In this document: piece by piece, positions 6,572-23,619 of the stretch
Position numbering within the stretch: position 1 is the stretch's first letter
How the letters are laid out: each line of letters starts with the position of its first letter
Source of the DNA: the human T2T-CHM13v2.0 reference genome, Homo sapiens
Assembly (NCBI RefSeq): GCF_009914755.1
Contig: NC_060935.1
Length of the DNA stretch: 64,000 bases
Reading direction: 5' to 3' (one strand)
The notes under the pieces: generated by a model
The model's database searches: none
What the model was told of the DNA's origin: nothing
What the model saw: only the letters and a program-made list of their open reading frames with translations
Program-made: the position numbers and the translations under genes

Positions 6572-7015
6572 TTTTTTTTTTTTTTTAGAGATAGGGTCTC
6601 ACTCTGTTGCCTAGGCTGGAGTGCAGTGGCACAGTCATGGCCTACTGTAGCCTTGACCTCCTGGGCTCAGGCAATCCTTCCACCTCAGCCTCCCAAGTAG
6701 CTGAGACTACAGGCATGCGTCACCATACCTGGCTGATTTTTTTTTTTTTTTTTAATTTTTGTAGAGATGCATCTCATTATATTGCCCAGGCTGCTCTTGA
6801 ACTACTGGCCTCAAGCAGTCTTCCTGCCTCAGTCTCCCGAGTAGCTGGGACTACAGGGGTGTGTCACTACACCTTGCAAATTTTTAAAATTTTTTGTAGA
6901 GTTGGGGTCTCGCTGTGTTGTCTAGGCTGGTCTTGAACTCCTGGGCTCAAGTGGTCCTCCTGCCTTGGCCTCCCAGAGAGCTGGGATTACAGGTGTGAGC
7001 TACCATGCCTGGCTG
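6572..7015 (-). mobile_element. Composite AluJ (extra arms)
   Basis: Alu arm sequences repeated within about 440 bp. Confidence 0.85.
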
Positions 7016-7048
7016 ATTCTTTAATTTTCAATATCTTCTCCTTTATAG

Positions 7049-7130
7049 GCATGAATTGCTGGAGGAAGCCCGGAGACAAGGTTTACCTTTTGCCCAATGG
7101 GACGGGCCAACGGTTGTGGTCTGGCTAGAG
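7049..7130 (+). CDS. PPFIA1: PPFIA1 exon, start of SAM1 ([27 protein letters not shown])
   Basis: ttatag acceptor and gtacat donor; liprin WDGPTVVxWLE motif. Confidence 0.95.
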
Positions 7131-7241
7131 GTACATCCTTCATTTAACATGCAGTTGCGTGGGTTACAGTATGTGAACTTACTGTTCTACTTTGTAGACT
7201 GTACCTCACTGTGCTGCCTTCCTTCCGCTTTCCGCCTCCAG

Positions 7242-7442
7242 CTCTGGGTTGGGATGCCAGCCTGGTATGTGGCTGCCTGCCGAGCAAACGTGAAAAGCGG
7301 GGCCATCATGTCGGCCCTGTCCGACACAGAGATCCAGCGTGAGATTGGCATCAGCAACCCCCTGCACAGGCTGAAGCTGAGGCTGGCCATCCAGGAGATC
7401 ATGTCGCTGACCAGCCCGTCTGCCCCGCCCACATCTAGAACG
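7242..7442 (+). CDS. PPFIA1: PPFIA1 exon, SAM1 ([67 protein letters not shown])
   Basis: Pyrimidine tract plus cag acceptor, gtacgt donor; highly conserved liprin-alpha SAM1 sequence. Confidence 0.97.
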
Positions 7443-8444
7443 GTACGTTCAGAGACAACCCCTGCATTCTTTGGAAACAGGGAATGCCTCTCTGAAGGTA
7501 TCACTGCCCTGTTTACATTGCTTCTCCAGTTCCTTAACAGCATATGAAGTATAGTTCTAATTCAAAATTTTAGCATCACATACATTAGAACTTTTAATTT
7601 TGGGGAATTGGATGGTCAAAAGAAACTTTATTAAATGCTTTTATGAAAGATTGGCTAGAATGGCTTCATAGTATAAAAATATGAGCTTTTTTAAACATAG
7701 AAAAGCAATTACAAATTTAAATATGGAAATATGAAATACGAAAATACCAAAAAAAATTGGTAGAGATGGGGGTCTCGCTGTGTTGCCCAGGCTGGTCTTG
7801 CACTCCTGGGCTCCAAGCAGTCCTCCCACCTCAGCCTTCCAATGTGCTGGGATTACAGGCGTGAGCCACCACACCCAGCTGAGTTTATCAAAATTGAATC
7901 AGTCTAAGGGCCTCTTGAAGGAAAAAGTTAATATTTTAAGGACACATTTTATAATTAAATGTTTTGAATTTCATTTTTCAGTTTTCATGATTCAAACTGA
8001 GTAATTAACATTTGTACTATATATAAAGATATTTGCTAAGCCAATTATAGTGTATTTTTAAATGTTACTGGAATATAATATACATATAGAGAAATGCACG
8101 TATGAGTGAACAGTTAAATGAATCTGTAAAGTCAGCATCCCCTGTGTGGTCCACACCTACATTGAAAAATGGGATCTGACCAGGGCTCTGGAGGCCTCCT
8201 GCTCCTTCTGAGGCACTGCCCCTTCCCTAGGGATGAGTGCCTGGCTCCTGGTGCCATAGACTGCTCTGTTAGTTTCGTTCTTCATGTGTATAAACAAGAT
8301 CATGTAGTATTCACTCTCTTGTGTCTGGCTTCTTTCACTTAATGTTATGTCTGTGAATTCATCCGTATCATTCCATGTGTAAGTAGCATCTTGAGTAAAA
8401 TTTTTCTGTCTAGTTCAGAGGACTGGCTCTTCCAGGCTTCTTAG

Positions 8445-8975
<531 letters not shown>

Positions 8976-10326
8976 GAAAAGGTCCCTAAAGAATTCTAAT
9001 CCTCCCTTCCCCATCATTCCAGTTTGCGGACATTTTTTAAAATAAAAACTAAAGGGGAAAATAAAGATGAGATCACTGGTTGCCTTGTAACCAGTGTTTT
9101 ACTGTATTTGATTTATTTGGCCTGTAGGTGTTTTCCATTTGGGGAGCTAAAGACCCTGGGAGCTCAGGATTTCAAGCAGTTCACAAATCTGCAAATGTTC
9201 ATCCAACATGAGCTGTACTTATACAGTTTCTCTCCATGTGGGAAGTCCCTCAAAGTCCTTAAGAAGGGTTATCCTACTTGAAAAAGAAGAACTATGTTAA
9301 TAAAAACAAGAATGGTTATTGGGAGATAAGGGCAGGCCAACTCCAGATTTATAAAGTTGAGACTTTTTACACTGGCTGGATTCCCAGTCTCTGCTTTTAG
9401 TCTCCTCAGGAGAAAACAAATTCTTGTTGCAATGAAGAGCCTCACACATTTCTCCAAGGAGCACGTCAGCGCTGGATTTAGGGCTCCCAGTTACCTTACA
9501 AAAAAAGTTTTGAGGGGTTTTACTTGTTTTATTTATTTTTTTCTTCTTAATGAACAAATTATGGTGATGAACAATAAGCTTTGTCCTCCCCTGTTGCTCC
9601 AAGAGCTCCTTTCCCACAGCCTGCCTCAGGAGCAGTGTCTGAGCTCTTCCCTGGTTGTTTCACATGACAGTGGCCTTGCTGAAAATGAAGGTGCTGAGTG
9701 GTTTCTCCCATGTTTATCCACTGTCTTCAGTAATGATGGAGAACACCTCACATAAGGCAGACTCTTCACACCATGTCAAAATGCAAGGAAAAAATCTCCC
9801 TCAAGTAGACACACAGGCCACTGTCTGTCTCGTGTCTGGTTCTGATGGCTGCACAGAGCCATCGACACTGCTTAGCAGTGACCCCCTCTGCCCTGTGGCC
9901 TGCCTTCAGCCTTTCAGGCCGTCACGGAACATCTGCGAGAAAGCCCTCCAATAGCCAAAGCAAGAGTTTCATGCTGGGTTCTTTGTTGTTAATCTGCTTT
10001 AAATATATTGAATCAATAGTTACTTGAGAATTACTCAAAGTTTCCAGAAGTACACAACGTGTTTTCTTCTCTTGATATTTCACATACCTCGGGTAAGCAT
10101 GGCATCTAAAGCTCTCGTCATCGTGTGCTCTTCTCCTGATGGTGTTGACGACCCAGTGTTAACAGGGAATGGTTATTCTGTACGGGCATCTGAACTGAAA
10201 AGTGAGAAGAGCGAACTTTGCCTCCTCGGCCCCTTCTCTGTGCCTGTGGCTTATGCGTGTGCCCCTCTCCTCTTTGTCACTGCTTCCCTTGCCCTGGATG
10301 TGGTTGGTGCACTGGGGTCACCTTAG

Positions 10327-10389
10327 ACCACAGGAAATGTCTGGTTAACACACGAAGAGATGGAAACGCTCGCAGCCACGCCGCAAACG
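10327..10389 (+). CDS. PPFIA1: PPFIA1 alternative cassette exon, 63 nt (TTGNVWLTHEEMETLAATPQT)
   Basis: ttag...gttagt boundaries, phase 0/0, no stop. Resembles the GNVWVTHEEMENL linker of liprin-alpha2/3/4 (recalled). Confidence 0.85.
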
Positions 10390-10894
10390 GTTAGTCACGC
10401 CCCACAGCCTGCACTCCTCCCAGCGCGTTTTCCACTTAAGACCGTCTGGGTTCTTTGCCTTTTTGTTGAAAACAAAATGTTGTTTTCCATTCAGTCGTTC
10501 CAGATAAGTATTTCCTTTAGTTATTAGTTGAAATGTGTAAGTAGAATTTGTATTTTATTTTAGATTTTTTCCAGGAACTTCAAGTTGGTAGACTCTGTCT
10601 TTTAGAATAGCTTTAATCTAGCTCTCCTTTTGGAGAGATCTCAGTTGAGCCTCCATGTGACTGACTGTGTGGCCCTTTCTCCTTCCATGAATATGCTTGG
10701 CACGGAGAGAGTCTGCTCCTTGCATGAGAAGTTGAAATTGTTGGTTTTGCATGAGTTTTGCATGATGCTTTGATAGTCTGAACTTTTTCACTCAGTGAAG
10801 CTGCATCTTCCCTGCAGAGTTGCGTTGCCTGCATTACCGAGCTCACCAATACTAATAGTTATGTTCTTTTGCATTCCTAACCACGTAACCCCAG

Positions 10895-10921
10895 GAAGAT
10901 GAGGAGGGAAGCTGGGCTCAG
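10895..10921 (+). CDS. PPFIA1: PPFIA1 alternative microexon, 27 nt (EDEEGSWAQ)
   Basis: cctaac branch-like motif, ccag acceptor, gttgga donor, phase 0/0. Matches the EEGSWAQ motif of the liprin-alpha2 paralog (recalled). Confidence 0.8.
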
Positions 10922-12807
10922 GTTGGAGTCTTTCTCTAATATATTCTTCACTACATGTACAGCAGCAAAAAGCAATTGGAGTATGAAAACTTGTGTAATC
11001 TACTTTTTTTGATGTTTATAGCATCTTAGTTTATTCGGAGTACAGGATTGTTAATGATTTGAAAGCACTGGTCAAGCAAAACATAGCATCAAAGAGTACG
11101 TCTCATGGACAATTTTGAACATTTCTCATATGGTGCCATGGCAGTTATTTTTAATTAATATAGATTGCTTTGTTTAACATATGATCTTGTATACAAAGTC
11201 TTGTGGCTTAGGCAGCTTCTGAGATTATGTATGTAATTTCCTGGTAGGGTAATGTTATTACAAGATATACTGATAGGGAAATTGTGCTCTAATAAATTTC
11301 CAAACACAAAAATTGGCATAATGACTTTTCCTCTGTGCCTTTGTGTTGATTTTTTACTAAATACTATCCTAATACTATGTCCACTTAAAGATTTTCTTAC
11401 TAATGGAATCCTAAGGAATTAAGCCTCTTCTTGAGTACTGTATATTTGAATTTTCAGCTTCTCAATTCTTTAACTCACCAAAAACTCTATCCCAACTGTT
11501 TTGCATTCTGTATGTTCAGACAGCTTGCCGAAATGTCGTGCGACGCCACTGGCCTTCTGTGGTCAGGGTGTATGTCTCAGTGGCACATTGCAGCCATGAG
11601 GCGTGGACAGGCAGTTCTAGAGGCTTTCCCGAATGGACTGTATTTGAGGGCTTCAGAATAATCATTATATATCTGAAAAGAATCAAAAGGATTTTAAATC
11701 ATAATTTTCCTGATTACGAGGTGATGGTTGAAGCAGCTGTTTCCTTCTCTTGGTACTCCTAAAATCTAGCTCATTAGACTGTCCCCCCACCTTTTTTTAT
11801 TTTTATTTTTTATTTGTATTTTTTAACAAAATAGAGTAGCTATAATGTGATTCTGTGGGCTTTTTTCTCTCTTGATTTAAGCATTCTGTGCCTCTCCTCC
11901 AGATAAATAACCTCATTGTTTAACTTGTTAGATATCCCTTTATAGGACCAATAATGACCATAAATGAATTATACAGGGTACATTTCATAATTACTTAAAT
12001 TTCAGTATATTTTCCACCAAGGAGCAGAATTTGGTTAATACTTCAGTATGAAATTGCCTGAGTCAGGGACAGGAAGTGTAAATTAAATAAGCTTAACCTT
12101 GCTCTTTGCGGTGGAAATATAAACAAGACTGAGCTGTGGTGATGACTCCAGAACTAGCCGACATGCAGTCTAGTGGAAGCTCGTATCACTTTTCCCTCCT
12201 TCCTGTCTTCCAGATGGGACTGCCACCTGCTGCCAAGGGCAGTACACAGTGGCCAGCTCTTAAACCAGGGAGAACTTTGAGCTGCGCCGAGAGACTAGGG
12301 GAGGAAGACATCAAGGCGTGGTCAAAACCATTTATACCTCATTTAACAAAATTAGTAAGAGTGCTGGCTGCGTGGAGCATCTATGAGCAGGACACCCATG
12401 GTCCCCCCGTCATGGAGCTCCCATTTTATGGAGTTCATAAGACTGGGTTGTACTTGTGGCTGTTTCAGTGCTGGGAGTAAACACTGTGCAGTGGGTGTCT
12501 CTTCTAGTTCAGATGTTCTCTGGACTGACATCACCTGGTATGTTTTTTTTCCAGAAGGCTGCTAAGGCAGCCCAGGAGAAGAGGTGGGTCTCCCTGGGAT
12601 GGAGCCTGATCCTTCTGGGAGTTCATGTTATAGGCCACTTCAGGAGTCTGAGCAGAGCATATAATGAGGAAACAGAAACAAGTAGGGTTCTGCTTCCATG
12701 CAGTTTTCTATTTAGACAATTCCTTTGTTTAATTTCCCCATTTAAGAATACATAATCAGCAAGCAAGAGAATAATACCAGATATCCCTGCTACATGTATC
12801 AGGCCTA

Positions 12808-13108
<301 letters not shown>

Positions 13109-13489
13109 ATCAGGCCTGTAAGGGTAAGGTTTAGAAGAGTGAATCAAGCATGGTGATGCTGTTAGATAGCTGATAATTACCCAAAAATGTTTGGCATATT
13201 TCTCTCTTTTTAGAGAAGGTAGTGAAGCATTTTTTTCTAGTAGAATTTAAACATTCTTTGTTTAAATTAGAGAATTTGAGTTATTGCTTAACTTAAATTT
13301 AGAATTTGAGTTATTGCTTCTAGTTTGGACCAAATAACAAATGATACTGGAAGCCATAGTTTCAAGACCAACATGGTGTTAGTTGAGAGTCACTACAAAG
13401 ATACCATAAGGTAGCTATGACTGGTGACCATAACTTAGTCTTCCTCAGCTGCAGACTTCAGGTACCTCGGGTACCTTCCTTCGATATGT

Positions 13490-16276
<2,787 letters not shown>

Positions 16277-19200
16277 TATATATTCTGTTGTTGGGTGGCA
16301 TGTTCTATATTCTGTTGTTGGGTAGAGTGTTCTATATTCTGTTGTTTGGTGGCGTGTTCTATATTCTGTTGTTGGGTGGCATGTTCTATATTCTGTTGTT
16401 GGGTGGCATGTTCTATATTCTCTTGGGTGGATTGTTCTATATTCTGTTGTTGGGTGGATTGTTGTATATTCTGTTGTTGGGTGGTGTGTTCTATATTCTG
16501 TTGTTGGGTAGCGTGCTCTGTCTTCTGTTGTTGGGTGGCGTGTTCTATCTTCTGTTGTTGGGTGGCGTGTTCTATATTCTGTTTTTGGGTGGATTGTATA
16601 TTCTGGTGTTGGGTGGATTGTTCTATCTTCTGTTGTTGGGTGGAGTGTTCTATATTCTGTTGTTGGGTGGAATGTTGTCTATTCTGTTGTTGGGTGGATT
16701 GTTCTATATTCTGTTGTTGGGTGGTGTGTTTTATATTCTGTTGTTAGGTAGCGTGTTGTATATTCTGTTGTTGGGTGGCGTGTTCTATATTTTGTTGATG
16801 GCGTGTTCTATATTCTGTTGTTGGGTGGATTGTTCTATCTTCTGTTGTTGGGTGGCGTGTTCTATATTCTGTTGTTGGGTGGATTGTTCTATCTTCTGTT
16901 GTTGGGTGGCGTGTTGTATATTCTGTTGTTGGGTGGCGTGTTCTAAATTCCGTTGTTGGGTGGATTGTTCTATATTCTGTTTTTGGGTGGATTGTTCTAT
17001 ATTCTGTTGTTGGTGTAGTGTTCTATATTCTGTTGTTGGGTGGCGTGTTCTATATTCTGTTGTTGGGTGGCGTGTTCTATATTCCGTTGTTGGGTGGATT
17101 GTTCTATATTCTGTTGTTGGGTGGATTGTTCTGTATTCCGTTGTTGGTGTAGTGTTCTATATTCTGTTGTTGGTGTAGTGTTCTATATTCTGTTGTTGGT
17201 GCAGTGTTCTATATTCTGTTGTTGGTGCAGTGTTCTATATTCTGTTGTTGGGTGGCGTGTTCTATATTCCGTTGTTGGGTGGATTGTTCTATATTCCGTT
17301 GTTGGGTGGATTGTTCTATATTCTGTTGTTGGGTGGATTGTTCTATATTCTGTTGTTGGTGTGGTGTTCTATATTCTGTTGTTGGTGGAGTGTTCTACAT
17401 TCTGTTGTTGGGTGGCATGTTCTATATTCTGTTGTTGGGTGGATTGTTCTATATTCCGTTGTTGGTGTAGTGTTCTATATTGTGTTGTTGGGTGGATGTT
17501 CTATATTCCGTTGTTGGATGGCATGTTCTATCTTCCATTATTGGGTGGATTGTTCTGTATTCTGTTGTTGGGTGGCATGTTCTATATTCTGTTGTTGGGT
17601 GGCATGTTCTATCTTCTGTTGTTGGGTGGCGTGTTCTGTCTTCTGTTGTTGGGTGGCGTGTTCTGTATTCTGTTGTTGGGTGGCATGTTCTATCTTCTGT
17701 TGTTGGGTGGCGTGTTCTATCTTCTGTTGTTGCGCGGCATGTTCTGTATTCTGTTGTTGGGTGGCGTGTTCTGTATTCTGTTGTTGGGTGGCGTGTCCTA
17801 TCTTCTGTTGTTGGGTGGAGTGGTCTATCTTCTGTTGTTGGGTGGAGTGTTCTGTATTCTGTTGTGTGGAATGTTGTATATTCTGTTGTTGGGTGGATTG
17901 TTGTATATTCTCTTGTTCGGTGGCGTGTTTTATATTCTGTTGTTGAGTGGCGTGTTGTATATTCTGTTGTTGGGTGGTGTGTTCTATATTCTGTTGTTGG
18001 GTGGATTGTTCTATATTCTGTTGTTGGGTGGCGTGTTGTATATTCTGTTGTTGGGTGGATTGTTCTATCTTCTGTTGTTGGGTGGCGTGTTCTATATTCT
18101 GTTGTTGGGTGGCATGTTCTATCTTCTGTTGTTGCGTGGCGTGTTCTATCTTCTGTTGTTGGGTGGATTGTTCTATATTCTGTTGTTGGGTGGCTTGTTC
18201 TGTATTCTGTTGTTGGGTGGCATGTTCTGTATTCTGTTGTTGGTGGAGTGTTCTATCTTCTGTTGTTGGGTAGATTGTTCTATATTCTCTTGTTGGGTGA
18301 CAAGTTCTATATTCCGTTGTTGGATTGTGTGTTGTATATTCCGTTGTTGGGTGGTGTGTTCTATATTCTGTTGTTGGTGGCATGTTCTATATTCTGTTGT
18401 TGGGTGGAGTGTTGCATATTCTGTTGTTGGGTGGTGTGTTCTGTATTCTGTTGTTGGGTGGATTGTTCTATATTCCATTGTTGGTGGCGTGTTCTATATT
18501 CTGTTGTTGGGTGGAGTGCTGCATATTCTGTTGTTGGGTGGCGTGTTCTATATTCTGTTGTTGGGTGGCGTGTTCTATATTCTGGCGTTGGGTGGCGTGT
18601 TCTATATTCTGTTGTTGGGTGGCGTGTTCTATATTTTGTTGGTGGAGTGTTCTATATTCTGTTGTTGGGTGGAGTGTTGTATATTCTGTTGTTGGGTGGC
18701 GTGTTGTATATTCTGTTGTTGGGTGGTGTGTTCTATAATCTCTTGCTAGGTAGAGTGTTCTATATTCTGTTGTTGGGTGGCGTGTTCTGTATTCTGTTGT
18801 TGGTGGGGTGTTCTATATTCTGTTGTTGGTGGAGTGTTCTGTATTCTGTTGGTTGGAGTGTTCTACTATTGTTGGGTGGAGTGTTCTATCTTCTGTTGGG
18901 TGGAGTGTTCTGCTGTTGTTGGGTGGCGTGTTGTATATTCTGTTGTTGGGTGGCGTGTTGTATATTCTGTTGTTGGGTGGCGTGTTGTATATTCTGTTGT
19001 TGGTGTAGTGTTCTATATTCTGTTGTTGGGTAGTGTGTTCTATATTCTCTTGTTGGGTGGCGCGTTCTATATTCTCTTGTTGGGTGGCGCGTTCTATATT
19101 CTGTTGCTGGGGGGATTGTTGTATATTCTGTTGGGTGGAGTGTTCTATCTTCCGTTGTTAGGTGAAGTGTTCTATATTCTGTTGTTGAGTGGAGCATTCT

Positions 19201-21990
19201 ATCTTCTGTTGTTGGGTGGAGTGTTCTATCCTCTGTTGTTGGGTAGAGCATTCTATCCTCTGTTGTTGGGTGGAGGGTTCTGTCTTCTGTTGTTAGGTGG
19301 CATGTTCTATATTCTGTTGTTGGGTGGATTGTTCTATCTTCTGTTGTTGGATGGCGTGTTCTATCTTCTGTTGTTGGGTGGATGGATTGTTCTGTATTCT
19401 GTTGGGTGGCGTGTTCTATCTTCTGTTGTTGGGTGGATGGATTGTTCTGTATTCTGTTGGGTGGCATGTTCTATCTTCTGTTTTTGGGTGGAGCGTTCTA
19501 TCTTCTGTTGGGTGGCGCATTCTATATTCTGTTGTTGGGTGGCGTGTTCTGTATTCTGTTGTTGGGTGGCTTGTTCTGTATTCTGTTGTTGGGTGGCATG
19601 TTCTGTATTCTGTTGTTGGTGGAGTGTTCTATCTTCTGTTGTTGGGTAGATTGTTCTATATTCTCTTGTTGGGTGACAAGTTCTATATTCCGTTGTTGGA
19701 TTGTGTGTTGTATATTCCGTTGTTGGGTGGTGTGTTCTATATTCTGTTGTTGGTGGCATGTTCTATATTCTGTTGTTGGGTGGAGTGTTGCATATTCTGT
19801 TGTTGGGTGGTGTGTTCTGTATTCTGTTGTTGGGTGGATTGTTCTATATTCCATTGTTGGTGGCGTGTTCTATATTCTGTTGTTGGGTGGAGTGCTGCAT
19901 ATTCTGTTGTTGGGTGGCGTGTTCTATATTCTGTTGTTGGGTGGCGTGTTCTATATTCTGGCGTTGGGTGGCGTGTTCTATATTCTGTTGTTGGGTGGCG
20001 TGTTCTATATTTTGTTGGTGGAGTGTTCTATATTCTGTTGTTGGGTGGAGTGTTGTATATTCTGTTGTTGGGTGGCGTGTTGTATATTCTGTTGTTGGGT
20101 GGTGTGTTCTATAATCTCTTGCTAGGTAGAGTGTTCTATATTCTGTTGTTGGGTGGCGTGTTCTGTATTCTTTTGTTGGTGGGGTGTTCTATATTCTGTT
20201 GTTGGTGGAGTGTTCTGTATTCTGTTGGTTGGAGTGTTCTACTATTGTTGGGTGGAGTGTTCTATCTTCTGTTGGGTGGAGTGTTCTGCTGTTGTTGGGT
20301 GGCGTGTTGTATATTCTGTTGTTGGGTGGCGTGTTGTATATTCTGTTGTTGGGTGGCGTGTTGTATATTCTGTTGTTGGTGTAGTGTTCTATATTCTGTT
20401 GTTGGGTAGTGTGTTCTATATTCTCTTGTTGGGTGGCGCGTTCTATATTCTCTTGTTGGGTGGCGCGTTCTATATTCTGTTGCTGGGGGGATTGTTGTAT
20501 ATTCTGTTGGGTGGAGTGTTCTATCTTCCGTTGTTAGGTGAAGTGTTCTATATTCTGTTGTTGAGTGGAGCATTCTATCTTCTGTTGTTGGGTGGAGTGT
20601 TCTATCCTCTGTTGTTGGGTAGAGCATTCTATCCTCTGTTGTTGGGTGGAGGGTTCTGTCTTCTGTTGTTAGGTGGCATGTTCTATATTCTGTTGTTGGG
20701 TGGATTGTTCTATCTTCTGTTGTTGGATGGCGTGTTCTATCTTCTGTTGTTGGGTGGATGGATTGTTCTGTATTCTGTTGGGTGGCGTGTTCTATCTTCT
20801 GTTGTTGGGTGGATGGATTGTTCTGTATTCTGTTGGGTGGCATGTTCTATCTTCTGTTTTTGGGTGGAGCGTTCTATCTTCTGTTGGGTGGCGCATTCTA
20901 TATTCTGTTGTTGGGTGGCGTGTTCTGTATTCTGTTGTTGGGTGGCCTGTTCTGTATTCTGTTGTTGGGTGGAGTGTTGTATCTTCTGTTGTTGGATGGC
21001 ATGTTCTATCTTCTGTTGTTGGGTGGATTGTTCTATCTTCTGTTGTTGGATGGCATGTTCTATCTTCTGTTGTTGGGTGGATGGATTGTTCTGTATTCTG
21101 TTGGGTGGCATGTTCTATCTTCTGTTGTTGGGTGGAGCGTTCTATCTTCTGTTGTTGGGTGGAGCGTTCTATCTTCTGTTGTTGGGTGGAGCGTTCTATC
21201 TTCTGTTGGGTGGCACGTTCTGTATTCTGTTGTTGGGTGGCGTGTTCTGTATTCTGTTGTTGGGTGGCGTGTTCTATATTCTGTTGTTGGGTGGCGTGTT
21301 CTATATTCTGTTGGGTGGCATGTTCTATATTCTGTTGTTGGGTGGCGTGTTCTATATTCTGTTGTTGGTGGCGTGTTCTACTGTTGTTGGGTGGAGTGTT
21401 CTATCTTCTGTTGTTGGGTGGCGTGTTCTATCCTCTGTTGTTGGGTGGAGTGTTCTGTATTCTTTCGTTGGGTAGATTGTTCTATATTCTCTTGTTGGGT
21501 GGCATGTTATATTTTCTGTTGTTGGGTGGCGTGTTCTGTATTCTGTTGTTGGGTTACATGTTCTATATTCCATTGTTGGGTGGCATGTTCTATATTCTGT
21601 TGTTGGTGGCGTGTTCTATATTCTGTTGTTTGTGGAGTGTTCTATATTCTGTCGTTTGTGGCGTGTTTTATATTCTGTTGGGTGGTGTGTTCTGTATTCT
21701 GTTGTTGGGTGGCGTGTTCTATATTCTGTTGTTGGTGGCATGTTCTGTATTCTCTTGCTGGGTAGGGTGTTCTATATTCTGTTGTTGGGTAGAGTGTTCT
21801 ATATTCTGTTGTTGGGTGGATTGTTCTATATTCTGTTGTTGAGTGGCGTGTTCTATGTTCTCTTGTTGGGTGGCGTGTTCTGTATTCTCTTGTTGGGTGG
21901 CGTGTTCTATCTTCTGTTGTTGGGTGGCGTGTTCTACATTCCATTGTTGGGTGGAGTGTTCTATATTCTGTTGTTGGGTGGTGTGTTCTA
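16277..21990. repeat. Minisatellite/VNTR, 27-bp unit (consensus TGTTCTATATTCTGTTGTTGGGTGGCG), roughly 210 copies
   Basis: Directly visible tandem array; 9-aa periodicity (GGVFYILLL) in the ORF track. Confidence 0.98.
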
Positions 21991-22200
21991 TGAAACGTCA
22001 GGTCAAGTTTGTTAAGGGTTGTTAGTTTAGGTTTTCTATATTCTTAATTTTTTTCTTTTTTTGCTTCTTTCATCAGTTGCTATGAGAAAGAAGTGTTGAA
22101 TTTTTTCAACTATAATTGTGAATTTGCCTGTTTCCCCATTTAGTCCTGTTGGTTGTTGCTTTATCTCTTCTCTAAAACTATATTTTAACTGACTTTTACT
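21991..22200 (-). mobile_element. Continuation of the same L1 (endonuclease region) after the VNTR
   Basis: gtgttgaa...aactataattgtgaatttgcctgtttcccc matches antisense L1 ORF2 EN; the minus ORF contains TIIVE. Confidence 0.75.
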
Positions 22201-22635
22201 GATTTTGAAATGGATTTTTTCTTTAGGAAAACAAAGTGTTAAAATGTAAACCAACCAGAGATAATTTTAGTGAGCAGTGTTGAATTGAGCCTTCAAACTT
22301 GTTCATGAGTCGTGATCAATCTTTGTCACATTATTATACTAAAAACTATCTCAGAGAGGAAATTTATAGCCAGTTACAGTTTTTTTGTAGTTTGATTTAA
22401 AAGTTAAATTTATCACAACGAATCATATATTTTTCATGTTACTATTCCTGTTGTATAAAAATTTTACTAACAAATTTAAAAGGTGAGAAGAGATCAAATT
22501 ATTTTGCAATTATAAAATTATCATTAGTTTAGCCTTTGAGAATATAGGTAATAGATTAAAAATTCATTTTAAAAATGATATAAACTACTTTTGAGACTTC
22601 CTCTGTAACTGACCTTTTCCATTTATGAAAAGCAG

Positions 22636-22811
22636 ACACTCGCCTATGGGGACATGAACCACGAGTGGATCGGCAACGAGTGGCTCCCCAGCCTGGGCCT
22701 CCCCCAGTACCGCAGCTACTTCATGGAGTGCCTTGTAGACGCCAGGATGCTGGACCACTTGACCAAGAAAGACCTTCGAGGGCAGCTGAAAATGGTCGAC
22801 AGTTTTCACAG
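22636..22811 (+). CDS. PPFIA1: PPFIA1 exon, SAM2 ([59 protein letters not shown])
   Basis: aagcag acceptor and gtaact donor; conserved SAM2 sequence. Confidence 0.97.
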
Positions 22812-22897
22812 GTAACTTAATGGAGATAGTTCTTAATAATTGGCTAAGATTTTTCACTGTTACCATCTCTAAATCATCTCTCTTTTCTTCCAAATAG

Positions 22898-22995
22898 AAA
22901 CAGTTTCCAGTGTGGAATTATGTGCCTGAGAAGGTTAAATTATGACCGGAAAGAACTGGAAAGAAAAAGAGAAGAAAGTCAGAGTGAAATAAAAG
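22898..22995 (+). CDS. PPFIA1: PPFIA1 exon, [32 protein letters not shown]
   Basis: 86-nt preceding intron; tag acceptor and gttagt donor; frame continuous. Confidence 0.95.
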
Positions 22996-23619
22996 GTTAG
23001 TACATGACATTTAATTGATTCGGTTTACTCCTACTTGCTGGTGTGTTTGGAGCCTCAGTGACTTCCTATTTTTCAAAAAATCAAGAAAGGCTAAATTTAA
23101 GTGGAGAAAACTAACTAGTCTAGTGTCATTGCAGAGGAGGGCTGGATGAAGTTGAGTGCTTTTGAGATTCTCTTCCACAGCTAGAGAACTGTTCCCTGTG
23201 TTCTCACACATCAGTCTGGAGGTTAAATGTCTCCGGCTAGTCGTTTCCTGTGAGTTGAGAGTTTTCCTTTGGTCATGCCCTGTGTACTCCTTCACTCCGA
23301 AATGCTGTTCCACACTGTTAGATAACAACAGAGCAAAGCTCACTTGATGATTCAAGTGTGAGAAATATGACTGGGGGCTTATCCAAGGGGTTCAGGAGAA
23401 CAGGAGAGCACCGTGCAGTTCTGCTCCCGGAGGGGAAGGAGAGGCAGCGTCCGCATTTCAGCTGGTCCTTGAAGAAGGAGGAGGAGCTGCTTAGGGTAAG
23501 GAAAAGGCATTTCAGTTGGAAAACACAGGCCAGGGAGGCGTTAGAGGATGTGAGACATTCATCCAGAAGACGTGGAGTTGGTTCTCTTCTCCGTTGGGGA
23601 GTCCCTCACTCGTACTCAA

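What the first reader, a model, noticed from the sequence alone, without database searches (positions are those of the whole stretch)
10327..10921. Hidden two-exon module (63-nt exon plus 27-nt microexon) restoring the neuronal-liprin SAM1-SAM2 insertion in liprin-alpha1
Seen: two short AG...GT-bounded, phase-0, stop-free segments that the ORF track misses, encoding TTGNVWLTHEEMETLAATPQT and EDEEGSWAQ. Knowledge (recalled): canonical liprin-alpha1 goes straight from PPTSRT to TLAYGD, whereas liprin-alpha2/3/4 carry a GNVWVTHEEME... insertion here. In liprin-alpha2 the VWV tryptophan of this insertion docks into the CASK CaMK domain, and alpha1 is usually described as lacking it. Inference: regulated inclusion could switch on CASK binding in liprin-alpha1 (VWL motif), with up to four in-frame combinations. 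These exons may already exist in minor annotated transcripts.
Basis: partly seen in the sequence, partly recalled or inferred. Interest (0 to 1): 0.85.

Follow-up and report, generated by a model that had tools for sequence, protein, structure and literature searches.

The report
Annotated CASK-binding insert exons of PPFIA1
The two short segments are real, already annotated alternative exons of the liprin-alpha1 gene that match the CASK-binding loop exons of its three sister genes, so the exons are not new, but whether they let liprin-alpha1 bind CASK remains untested.

Summary
They have AG/GT bounds, are in phase 0, and encode TTGNVWLTHEEMETLAATPQT and EDEEGSWAQ between the SAM1 and SAM2 exons of PPFIA1.

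They are not hidden. RefSeq carries both exons in 13 of 32 PPFIA1 mRNAs, including the curated NM_001378006.1. It carries the 63-nt exon alone in 3, the 27-nt exon alone in 0, and neither in 16, including the MANE transcript.

Shape alone proves nothing: the same intron holds 696 AG..GT stop-free segments. Paralogy is the real evidence:
- The 63-nt peptide matches exactly four places in the human genome, one in each PPFIA gene.
- All four genes keep a 63-nt plus 27/30-nt exon pair in the same place and phase.
- Differences between paralogues fall mostly on third codon positions, while the flanks are random.
- The exon aligns with the loop of liprin-alpha2 in the CASK complex 3TAC.

The V-W-L core fits the published psi-W-psi CASK motif. 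CASK binding and neuronal inclusion are inferred, not shown. The papers I could search describe alpha1 as lacking the insertion.

Verdict: already known exons whose functional consequence is plausible, little noticed and untested.

The parts
7242..7442 (+). Constitutive PPFIA1 exon encoding the C-terminal part of SAM1. It ends ...[10 protein letters not shown] and is the upstream splice partner of the module.
   Evidence: In all 32 mRNAs. Phase 0, AG/GT. 64 of 67 residues identical to the PPFIA4 exon and 61 of 67 to the PPFIA3 exon.
10327..10389 (+). Exon A: a 63-nt alternative cassette exon, phase 0, encoding TTGNVWLTHEEMETLAATPQT. It holds the V-W-L core of the putative CASK-interaction motif.
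   Evidence: In 16 of 32 RefSeq mRNAs. One match in each of PPFIA1-4 and nowhere else in the genome. Aligns with 3tac_B 118-136. Differences from paralogues are biased to third codon positions. Its 3' splice site has the lowest pyrimidine content (0.52) of the 17 exons compared.
10895..10921 (+). Exon B: a 27-nt alternative microexon, phase 0, encoding EDEEGSWAQ. It is annotated only together with exon A.
   Evidence: In 13 of 32 mRNAs and never without exon A. Counterparts are ESEEGSWAQ within a 30-nt exon in PPFIA2, DSEEGSWAQ in PPFIA4 and ETKEISWEQ in PPFIA3. Its donor CAG|GTTGGA matches 6 of 9 consensus positions.
10721..10764 (+). Cluster of three sense-strand TGCATG (Rbfox-type) motifs in the 505-nt intron between exon A and exon B. 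It lies 333-371 nt after exon A and 135-173 nt before exon B. This is a candidate splicing-control element by inference only.
   Evidence: These are 3 of the 16 plus-strand sites in the 64-kb window. Only 69 of 100,000 random placements of 16 sites put three within 44 nt. Two of the three sit in a short local duplication (print-out), so slippage could also explain the cluster.
22633..22811 (+). First SAM2 exon (TLAYGD...) and downstream splice partner of the module. It has two acceptors 3 nt apart, at 22633 and 22636.
   Evidence: The 22636 acceptor is used in 27 of 32 mRNAs and the 22633 acceptor in 5 of 32. 56 of 58 residues are identical to PPFIA2 and to PPFIA4.

Best explanation
The two segments are genuine, already annotated alternative cassette exons of PPFIA1 (liprin-alpha1). 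They are the paralogues of the exon pair that encodes the SAM1-SAM2 insertion loop of liprin-alpha2/3/4, so the pair goes back to the single ancestral vertebrate liprin-alpha gene. When exon A is spliced in, with or without exon B, a 21- or 30-residue flexible loop is placed between SAM1 and SAM2. [quoted passage not shown] That would give these isoforms a CASK-binding capacity that the ubiquitous insert-less isoform lacks. Inclusion is most likely favoured in neurons and skipping elsewhere.

Shown here: the exons, their annotation, their paralogy and their coding constraint.
Inferred: CASK binding, neuronal inclusion, and which factors control splicing.
For: Anatomy and annotation:
- Phase-0 AG/GT exons lie between the SAM1 and SAM2 exons.
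- 13 of 32 mRNAs have A+B, including the curated NM_001378006.1. 3 of 32 have A only.

Paralogy:
- The exon A peptide matches 4 of 4 scored places in the human genome, one in each PPFIA gene.
- The order SAM1 exon, A, B, SAM2 exon was seen whole in PPFIA3 and PPFIA4. In PPFIA2 I saw A, B and the SAM2 exon in that order; its SAM1 exon lay outside the stretch fetched.
- Exon A is exactly 63 nt in all four genes. Exon B is 27, 30, 27 and 27 nt in PPFIA1, 2, 3 and 4.

Constraint:
- Differences between PPFIA1 exon A and its paralogues at codon positions 1/2/3 are 6/1/13, 7/0/11 and 7/1/12. The 60-nt flanks match at only 17-24 of 60 positions.
- By my count on the print-out, 11 of 21 residues (GNVW.THEEME.L) are invariant in all four genes.

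Link to CASK:
- Exon A aligns with 3tac_B residues 118-136. In PMC6994669 (passages), 3TAC is the CASK-liprin-alpha2 structure, and the isolated loop binds CASK.
- The published motif is acidic-x-psi-W-psi-x-R with hydrophobic psi (bioRxiv 10.1101/2022.01.16.476467, passages). V-W-L fits the psi-W-psi core.
- Liprin-alpha3 carries V-W-M, and its W921A mutant is described as disrupting CASK binding (PMC11001580, passages). The residue after W therefore tolerates change.

Circumstantial:
- A 'larger neuronal isoform' of liprin-alpha1 is seen on blots of human induced neurons (PMC11001580).
- Liprin-alpha1 co-precipitates with the MALS-3/CASK complex from brain (PMC2171538).
- Mouse Ppfia1 is listed among genes with developmentally regulated microexons (PMC7821500).
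- PPFIA1 exon A has the weakest polypyrimidine tract, and exon B a weak donor, among the 17 exons compared. A UGCAUG cluster lies between the two exons.
Against: - No binding, structure or expression data for the alpha1 insert were available here.
- The literature I could read says CASK binds alpha2 and not alpha1 and that the insertion is not conserved in alpha1. I infer, but could not verify, that those statements rest on the insert-less isoform; Wei et al. 2011 is not held.
- Leu in place of Val after the tryptophan is unique to alpha1.
- Liprin-alpha2 also uses a secondary SAM-domain contact with CASK, which I did not compare residue by residue.
- Alpha1 lacks the six extra residues (CPVFLQ) present in the crystallised alpha2 loop.
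- The brain co-precipitation of alpha1 could come from heteromers with other liprins.
- The larger neuronal band could be due to the other cassette exons of 75, 117 and 30 nt.
- The microexon paper may refer to the other PPFIA1 microexon, the 30-nt one.
- PPFIA2 and PPFIA4 have no GCATG near their exon pairs.
- PPFIA1 has only one TGC upstream of exon B.
- Conservation of these exons in PPFIA1 orthologues of other vertebrates could not be checked with these tools (searches gave only fragments).
Confidence: 0.6

Rival explanations
1. The exons are real and conserved, but in liprin-alpha1 the loop does not bind CASK to a useful degree. It would instead serve another purpose: setting the SAM1-SAM2 linker length, tuning liprin-beta or LAR-RPTP binding, condensate formation, or docking another W-pocket partner.
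For: - Leu replaces Val after the tryptophan only in alpha1.
- Alpha1 lacks the CPVFLQ extension of the crystallised alpha2 loop.
- The literature states that alpha1 does not bind CASK.
- Exon B carries a second invariant S-W in all four genes, whose role I could not find described.
Against: - Every other core position (G, N, V, W, T, H, E, E, M, E) is identical to alpha2.
- The motif only asks for a hydrophobic residue after W.
- Alpha3 has Met there, and its tryptophan mutant is described as disrupting CASK binding.
- Deleting the loop of alpha2 had little effect on LAR binding (PMC6954185).
Confidence: 0.25
2. The exons are decaying relics of the ancestral gene, spliced in only as low-level noise and without function in liprin-alpha1. 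The RefSeq models would then reflect rare transcripts.
For: - MANE and 16 of 32 models skip both exons.
- Exon A has a poor polypyrimidine tract and exon B a weak donor.
- 15 of the 16 models that hold exon A are Gnomon predictions.
Against: - Frame, both splice-site pairs and 11 of 21 residues are kept (my count).
- Alpha1 is as similar to its paralogues (13-14 of 21 residues) as they are to each other (13-15 of 21).
- The same third-position bias is seen, while the flanks are random.
- One curated BestRefSeq record holds both exons.
Confidence: 0.08
3. The segments are chance AG..GT stop-free stretches in a long intron.
For: Such stretches are common: 696 in this intron, including 16 of 63 nt and 31 of 27 nt.
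Against: - The exon A peptide matches the genome in exactly four places, each in a PPFIA gene between the SAM1 and SAM2 exons.
- PDB matches to the liprin-alpha2 and alpha3 loops.
- RefSeq annotation.
Confidence: 0.01

Closest known systems
SAM1-SAM2 insertion loop (CASK-interaction region) of liprin-alpha2, PDB 3TAC chain B
   Same: - Same place between the ...TSRT end of SAM1 and the TLAYGD start of SAM2.
- Same first exon of 63 nt in phase 0.
- Same G-N-V-W-x-T-H-E-E-M-E core.
- Second exon ends in EEGSWAQ in both.
- Alpha2 also exists without the loop: the chain 3tad_A has the junction TSRT|TLAYGD, the same as canonical alpha1.
   Different: - Alpha1 has V-W-L, alpha2 has V-W-V.
- The alpha1 loop is 30 residues (21+9). 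The alpha2 loop is 37 (21+10+6), the last six coming from an upstream acceptor of the SAM2 exon.
- CASK binding is shown for alpha2 (literature) and is untested for alpha1.
Insertion loops of liprin-alpha3 (PDB 6KR4, 6KIP) and liprin-alpha4
   Same: The same two-exon layout, 63 nt plus 27 nt, at the same intron position and phase. Alpha3 shows that the residue after W can vary, since it has V-W-M.
   Different: - Alpha3 exon B is much more diverged (ETKEISWEQ, 5 of 9 residues identical to alpha1).
- The A-B introns are 160 nt in PPFIA3 and 619 nt in PPFIA4, against 505 nt in PPFIA1.
- In the literature these genes are described as carrying the insertion, and alpha1 is not.
CASK-interaction (CID) peptides of Caskin1, Mint1 and Tiam1
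   Same: A tryptophan flanked by hydrophobic residues enters the CaMK-domain pocket. The published motif is acidic-x-psi-W-psi-x-R (passages, passages).
   Different: - Liprin loops, including that of alpha1, have G rather than an acidic residue at -3 and H rather than R at +3.
- They rely on a second contact through the SAM domains.
- These proteins are unrelated to liprins. The resemblance is a short linear motif, not homology.
Neuronal microexon programmes (SRRM4/nSR100-dependent and Rbfox-dependent cassette exons). The properties of these programmes are recalled from general knowledge and come from no call.
   Same: - Exon B is 27 nt, in frame, and lies in a synaptic scaffold gene within a surface loop between folded domains.
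- A TGC lies 25 nt upstream of its acceptor.
- A UGCAUG cluster lies in the adjoining intron.
- Mouse Ppfia1 is named among genes with developmentally regulated microexons.
   Different: - No expression or binding data were seen here.
- There is only one upstream TGC, against three each in PPFIA2 and PPFIA4.
- The microexon paper may mean the other PPFIA1 microexon, of 30 nt.

Membership tests
Liprin-alpha SAM1-SAM2 insertion (paralogous exon pair of PPFIA2/3/4) | Lies between the last SAM1 exon and the first SAM2 exon, in phase 0 | tested here: met
   (phases, junctions PPTSRT | insert | TLAYGD). Searches show the same order in PPFIA3 and PPFIA4, and the order A, B, SAM2 exon in PPFIA2.
Liprin-alpha SAM1-SAM2 insertion (paralogous exon pair of PPFIA2/3/4) | Encoded by two short exons, 63 nt then 27-30 nt | tested here: met
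   exon A is 63 nt in all four genes, and exon B is 27/30/27/27 nt. The review PMC8044993 says the alpha2 insertion is encoded by two exons (passage).
Liprin-alpha SAM1-SAM2 insertion (paralogous exon pair of PPFIA2/3/4) | Sequence homology with the loop in solved liprin-alpha structures | tested here: met
   3tac_B residues 118-136 (E 0.00029), and 6kr4_E and 6kip_B (E 0.0006); 63-74% identity to the three paralogous exons.
Liprin-alpha SAM1-SAM2 insertion (paralogous exon pair of PPFIA2/3/4) | Maintained as coding sequence (purifying selection) | tested here: met
   differences at codon positions 1/2/3 are 6/1/13, 7/0/11 and 7/1/12 against PPFIA2, 3 and 4. Flanks match at 17-24 of 60 positions. 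This was tested between paralogues only, not between PPFIA1 orthologues.
CASK CaMK-domain ligands (CID motif) | Invariant tryptophan flanked by hydrophobic residues (psi-W-psi) | tested here: met
   V-W-L. Motif definition from bioRxiv 10.1101/2022.01.16.476467 (passages).
CASK CaMK-domain ligands (CID motif) | Acidic residue at -3 and arginine at +3 of the full motif | tested here: not met
   Alpha1 has G at -3 and H at +3. Liprin-alpha2 has the same two residues, and changing them to E and R raised its affinity about nine-fold. Liprin loops are therefore sub-optimal motif matches that rely on a second SAM contact.
CASK CaMK-domain ligands (CID motif) | Direct, tryptophan-dependent binding to the CASK CaMK domain | not testable with these tools
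   The two-protein predictor was off and there is no bench access. The literature seen says alpha1 does not bind; I infer this was for the insert-less isoform.
Neuron-enriched regulated cassette exon or microexon | Higher inclusion in neurons than in other cells | not testable with these tools
   Sequencing reads were off and supplements closed. The only hints are indirect: a larger neuronal alpha1 band and Ppfia1 in a list of genes with regulated microexons.
Neuron-enriched regulated cassette exon or microexon | Length of 30 nt or less, a multiple of three, with weak splice signals | tested here: met
   Exon B is 27 nt with donor CAG|GTTGGA, 6 of 9 matches. Exon A has acceptor pyrimidine content 0.52, the lowest of 17 exons.
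Neuron-enriched regulated cassette exon or microexon | Nearby binding motifs for neuronal splicing factors (UGC close to the acceptor, UGCAUG in flanking introns). The motif rules are recalled, not from a call. | tested here: inconclusive
   There is one TGC at -25 of exon B, against three each in PPFIA2 and PPFIA4 and none in PPFIA3. Three TGCATG sites lie within 44 nt between the exons (69 of 100,000 random placements), but there is no GCATG near the PPFIA2 and PPFIA4 pairs.

The most novel reading that the evidence does not exclude
Liprin-alpha1 is a fourth CASK-binding liprin-alpha. The textbook statement that alpha1 lacks the CASK loop would be an artefact of studying the ubiquitous insert-less isoform. 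In neurons, inclusion of exon A (with or without exon B), possibly driven by the UGCAUG cluster between the exons, would switch on W-dependent CASK binding. This would account for the larger neuronal alpha1 band and for alpha1 in the brain MALS/CASK complex. It would also add to the redundancy among liprin-alphas in presynapse assembly.
Probability: 0.5. Interest if true: 0.5.

Novelty: already known. Interest (0 to 1): 0.3.

Why it matters
Liprin-alpha1 is the ubiquitously expressed family member. In the papers I could read it is treated as the one liprin-alpha that cannot bind CASK. The genome and RefSeq show that the gene keeps the complete, constrained CASK-loop exon pair as alternative exons. 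If the insert-containing isoform binds CASK, then:
- isoform choice, not gene identity, decides whether liprin-alpha1 links to the CASK/neurexin pathway;
- experiments that use the standard alpha1 cDNA as a 'CASK-negative' control or rescue construct would need that caveat;
- variants in these two exons, which lie outside the MANE transcript, could be overlooked in clinical interpretation of PPFIA1.

If it does not bind, the conserved loop has some other, unknown role.

Tried and rejected
Chance. I counted AG..GT stop-free segments in the intron. I rejected it in favour of the paralogy argument.

Cross-species conservation of the PPFIA1 exons. One protein word search with the 67-residue SAM1 exon gave 12 of 12 scored candidates, all short fragments; 456 sample-only candidates were left out by the tool. 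I read 9 of the 12. Only one, P0003, a fish liprin-alpha2 fragment, runs from SAM1 into an exon-A-like peptide, and none is informative for liprin-alpha1. Full-length proteins were out of reach: the length window needs a query of about 700 residues or more, and spliced sequences may not be typed. I did not use the other two searches. No vertebrate genomes are in the collections.

Structure. I made no prediction.

Literature.
- None of the papers listed and read in passages describes an insert-containing liprin-alpha1 or its CASK binding.
- Three strings of the exon A peptide are printed in 0 held papers; figures are not held.
- Wei et al. 2011 and Zurner and Schoch 2009, the two papers most likely to settle what is already in print, are not held.
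- Supplementary tables of splicing atlases are closed and may list these exons.
- PMC9715400, PMC12273559 and PMC10136522 had nothing on the point.
- A table in PMC12221596 names 'Ppfia1 exon 10' as an Rbfox-linked event. I could not map that number to these exons.

Splicing-factor motifs. The shared CTAAC-like branch-point motif upstream of exon B in the four genes was considered. I dropped it as evidence because in PPFIA2 it lies too close to the acceptor. The UGCAUG cluster is kept only as a lead.

Rfam scan of 7000-23000. It found only a 7SL-like match inside a masked repeat, which is unrelated.
Full report
**1. What is in the sequence**

The window is chr11:70370001-70434000 of T2T-CHM13 and holds the 3' part of PPFIA1 (liprin-alpha1).
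- At 10327-10389, a 63-nt stretch preceded by AG and followed by GT translates to TTGNVWLTHEEMETLAATPQT.
- At 10895-10921, a 27-nt stretch preceded by AG and followed by GT translates to EDEEGSWAQ.
- Splicing the annotated coding exons in a script shows that both start in phase 0. They sit between the exon 7242-7442, which ends ...[10 protein letters not shown] (end of SAM1), and the exon 22636-22811, which begins [11 protein letters not shown]... (start of SAM2).
- A mechanical ORF list does not show them as such.

**2. Are they more than chance, and are they hidden?**

Shape alone is weak evidence. The 15,193-nt intron 7443-22635 contains 696 AG..GT, phase-0, stop-free segments of 21-90 nt, including 16 of 63 nt and 31 of 27 nt.

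They are not hidden. Of the 32 RefSeq PPFIA1 mRNAs:
- 13 contain both exons, among them the curated NM_001378006.1;
- 3 contain the 63-nt exon alone (XM_054370274.1, XM_054370293.1, XM_054370300.1);
- 0 contain the 27-nt exon alone;
- 16 contain neither, among them MANE NM_003626.5 and NM_177423.3.

The non-coding NR_045286.3 also lacks both.

NM_001378006.1 encodes 1267 residues against 1202 for MANE. The extra 65 residues equal the 63-nt and 27-nt exons plus 105 nt upstream of the window. That 105 nt matches the 75-nt and 30-nt cassette exons listed.

**3. What they are: paralogy**

- The 21-residue peptide, searched against the whole reference in six frames, gave four matches from four scored candidates: itself, and one each on chr19, chr12 and chr1. 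These lie inside PPFIA3, PPFIA2 and PPFIA4.
- The individual E-values are modest (0.005 to 0.05), but the context is decisive. In fetched stretches of the three genes, tblastn with the PPFIA1 exon peptides finds the exons in the order SAM1 exon, exon A, exon B, SAM2 exon. The PPFIA2 SAM1 exon lay outside the stretch fetched.
- For PPFIA3, exon B was not found by similarity. A scan of the intron found a 27-nt AG/GT segment, ETKEISWEQ, 160 nt after exon A with a good pyrimidine tract. It fits the nine residues that separate the exon A match from the SAM2 exon match in the liprin-alpha3 chains 6kip_B and 6kr4_E.
- Exon A is exactly 63 nt with AG/GT in all four genes. Exon B is 27 nt in PPFIA1, 3 and 4 and 30 nt in PPFIA2.
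- In PPFIA2, an acceptor 18 nt upstream of the SAM2 exon adds six more residues. These are present in the crystallised chain 3tac_B at 148-153. That accounts for the '37-amino acid insertion' of alpha2 quoted in PMC3678157: 21+10+6.
- The alpha2 chain of the liprin-beta complex, 3tad_A, has no loop and reads TSRT|TLAYGD, the same junction as canonical alpha1.

**4. Constraint**

- Between PPFIA1 exon A and the exon A of PPFIA2, 3 and 4, nucleotide differences at codon positions 1/2/3 are 6/1/13, 7/0/11 and 7/1/12.
- Amino-acid identity is 14, 14 and 13 of 21, the same range as among the other three genes (13-15 of 21).
- The 60 nt on either side match at only 17-24 of 60 positions.
- Eleven of 21 residues (G-N-V-W, T-H-E-E-M-E, L) are the same in all four genes; this is my count on the print-out.
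- In exon B, E4, S6, W7 and Q9 are the same in all four (same print-out).

Since the four genes share this exon pair, it was most simply present in their common ancestor, and PPFIA1 has kept it as coding sequence. This is an inference from paralogues. I could not examine PPFIA1 orthologues (searches gave only fragments). One fish liprin-alpha2 fragment does run from SAM1 into an exon-A-like peptide.

**5. How it most likely works**

- Exon A aligns with residues 118-136 of 3tac_B and with the loop of liprin-alpha3 chains.
- From passages of papers: the loop between SAM1 and SAM2 is essential for CASK binding, and the isolated loop binds CASK (PMC6994669).
- The V-W-V tryptophan (W981 of alpha2) enters a hydrophobic pocket of the CaMK domain (PMC8044993; PMC9500383; PMC10136522).
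- A preprint gives the motif acidic-x-psi-W-psi-x-R with hydrophobic psi. It notes that alpha2 has G and H in place of the acidic and basic ends, and that a second, independent contact runs through the SAM domains.
- Alpha1 reads G-N-V-W-L-T-H. That is identical to alpha2 except Leu for Val after the tryptophan. Alpha3 has Met there, and its W921A mutant is described as disrupting CASK binding (PMC11001580).
- The first SAM2 exon of alpha1 is 56 of 58 residues identical to that of alpha2.

I therefore think it likely, about two in three, that alpha1 isoforms with exon A bind CASK in the same way. This step is inferred, not shown.

**6. Regulation (inferred)**

- Among 17 exons compared (the eight A and B exons of the four genes and nine constitutive PPFIA1 exons of the window), PPFIA1 exon A has the lowest pyrimidine content upstream of its acceptor (0.52).
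- PPFIA1 exon B has a donor, CAG|GTTGGA, with 6 of 9 consensus matches. That is the joint lowest, tied with exon 7049-7130.
- One TGC lies 25 nt upstream of exon B. PPFIA2 and PPFIA4 have three each, and PPFIA3 has none.
- Three sense-strand TGCATG sites lie within 44 nt at 10721-10764, between the two exons. The whole window has 16 plus-strand sites, and 69 of 100,000 random placements give such a cluster.
- Two of the three sit in a short local duplication, so slippage is an alternative origin.
- PPFIA3 has GCATG sites 28, 50 and 223 nt after its exon B. PPFIA2 and PPFIA4 have none within 400 nt.
- That UGC and UGCAUG mark SRRM4- and Rbfox-dependent exons is recalled general knowledge, not a result of a call.

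Indirect support for neuronal inclusion:
- A 'larger neuronal isoform' of liprin-alpha1 appears on blots of human induced neurons (PMC11001580).
- Liprin-alpha1 is found in MALS-3 immunoprecipitates from brain (PMC2171538).
- Ppfia1 is named among genes with developmentally regulated microexons in mouse (PMC7821500).

Each of these has another possible explanation. The other cassette exons of 75, 117 and 30 nt could produce the larger band, and the 30-nt exon could be the microexon meant. Heteromers with other liprins could explain the co-precipitation.

**7. Comparison with what is known**

The exons are known to the annotation. In the literature I could search, alpha1 is described as lacking the insertion (PMC8044993) and as not binding CASK (PMC3678157, citing Wei et al. 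2011). No held paper prints the exon A peptide, and none of the papers from the ten searches describes an insert-containing alpha1.

This statement of absence is limited. The two key papers are not held, figures and supplements are not visible, and subscription journals are mostly missing.

**8. Verdict**

The feature is an already annotated alternative exon pair, the fourth copy of a known CASK-loop module. What is still open, and modestly interesting, is whether the insert-containing liprin-alpha1 binds CASK and where it is made. Interest is 0.3.

Noticed in passing
window 7598-11672, minus strand: The 4-kb terminal exon of the lncRNA CTTN-DT (NR_186321.1) runs antisense across both alternative exons and the intron between them. 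The gene table also puts an antisense lncRNA, PPFIA2-AS1, over the PPFIA2 exon A match. Whether antisense transcription bears on splicing of the module is unknown.
   Followed up: no
window 8968-12803: A stretch of about 3.8 kb with no masked repeat surrounds the two exons, in an intron otherwise dotted with repeats. This is compatible with conserved intronic control sequence, but I did not test it.
   Followed up: no
window 8484-8631, minus strand: The Rfam match to Metazoa_SRP (73.2 bits, gathering score 70) lies inside the masked repeat 8447-8774. It is most likely an Alu-type 7SL-derived repeat and not an SRP RNA gene. That reading rests on general knowledge.
   Followed up: partly
window 22633-22636: The first SAM2 exon has two acceptors 3 nt apart. 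5 of 32 mRNAs use 22633, which adds one codon, and 27 of 32 use 22636. PPFIA2 has a different alternative acceptor, 18 nt upstream, at the same exon.
   Followed up: partly
chr11:70347976-70348050, 70364877-70364993 and 70365948-70365977 (upstream of the window): There are three further PPFIA1 cassette exons of 75, 117 and 30 nt, each in 16 of 32 mRNAs. The 30-nt one is a second microexon. The curated NM_001378006.1 appears to combine the 75-nt and 30-nt exons with the two exons studied here; this rests on arithmetic.
   Followed up: partly
L005:4874-4903 (PPFIA3), with the stretches upstream of exon B in PPFIA1, PPFIA2 and PPFIA4: All four genes have a CTAAC-type motif shortly upstream of exon B, and PPFIA3 has TACTAAC. 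In PPFIA2 it lies too close to the acceptor to be the branch point, so I drew no conclusion.
   Followed up: partly
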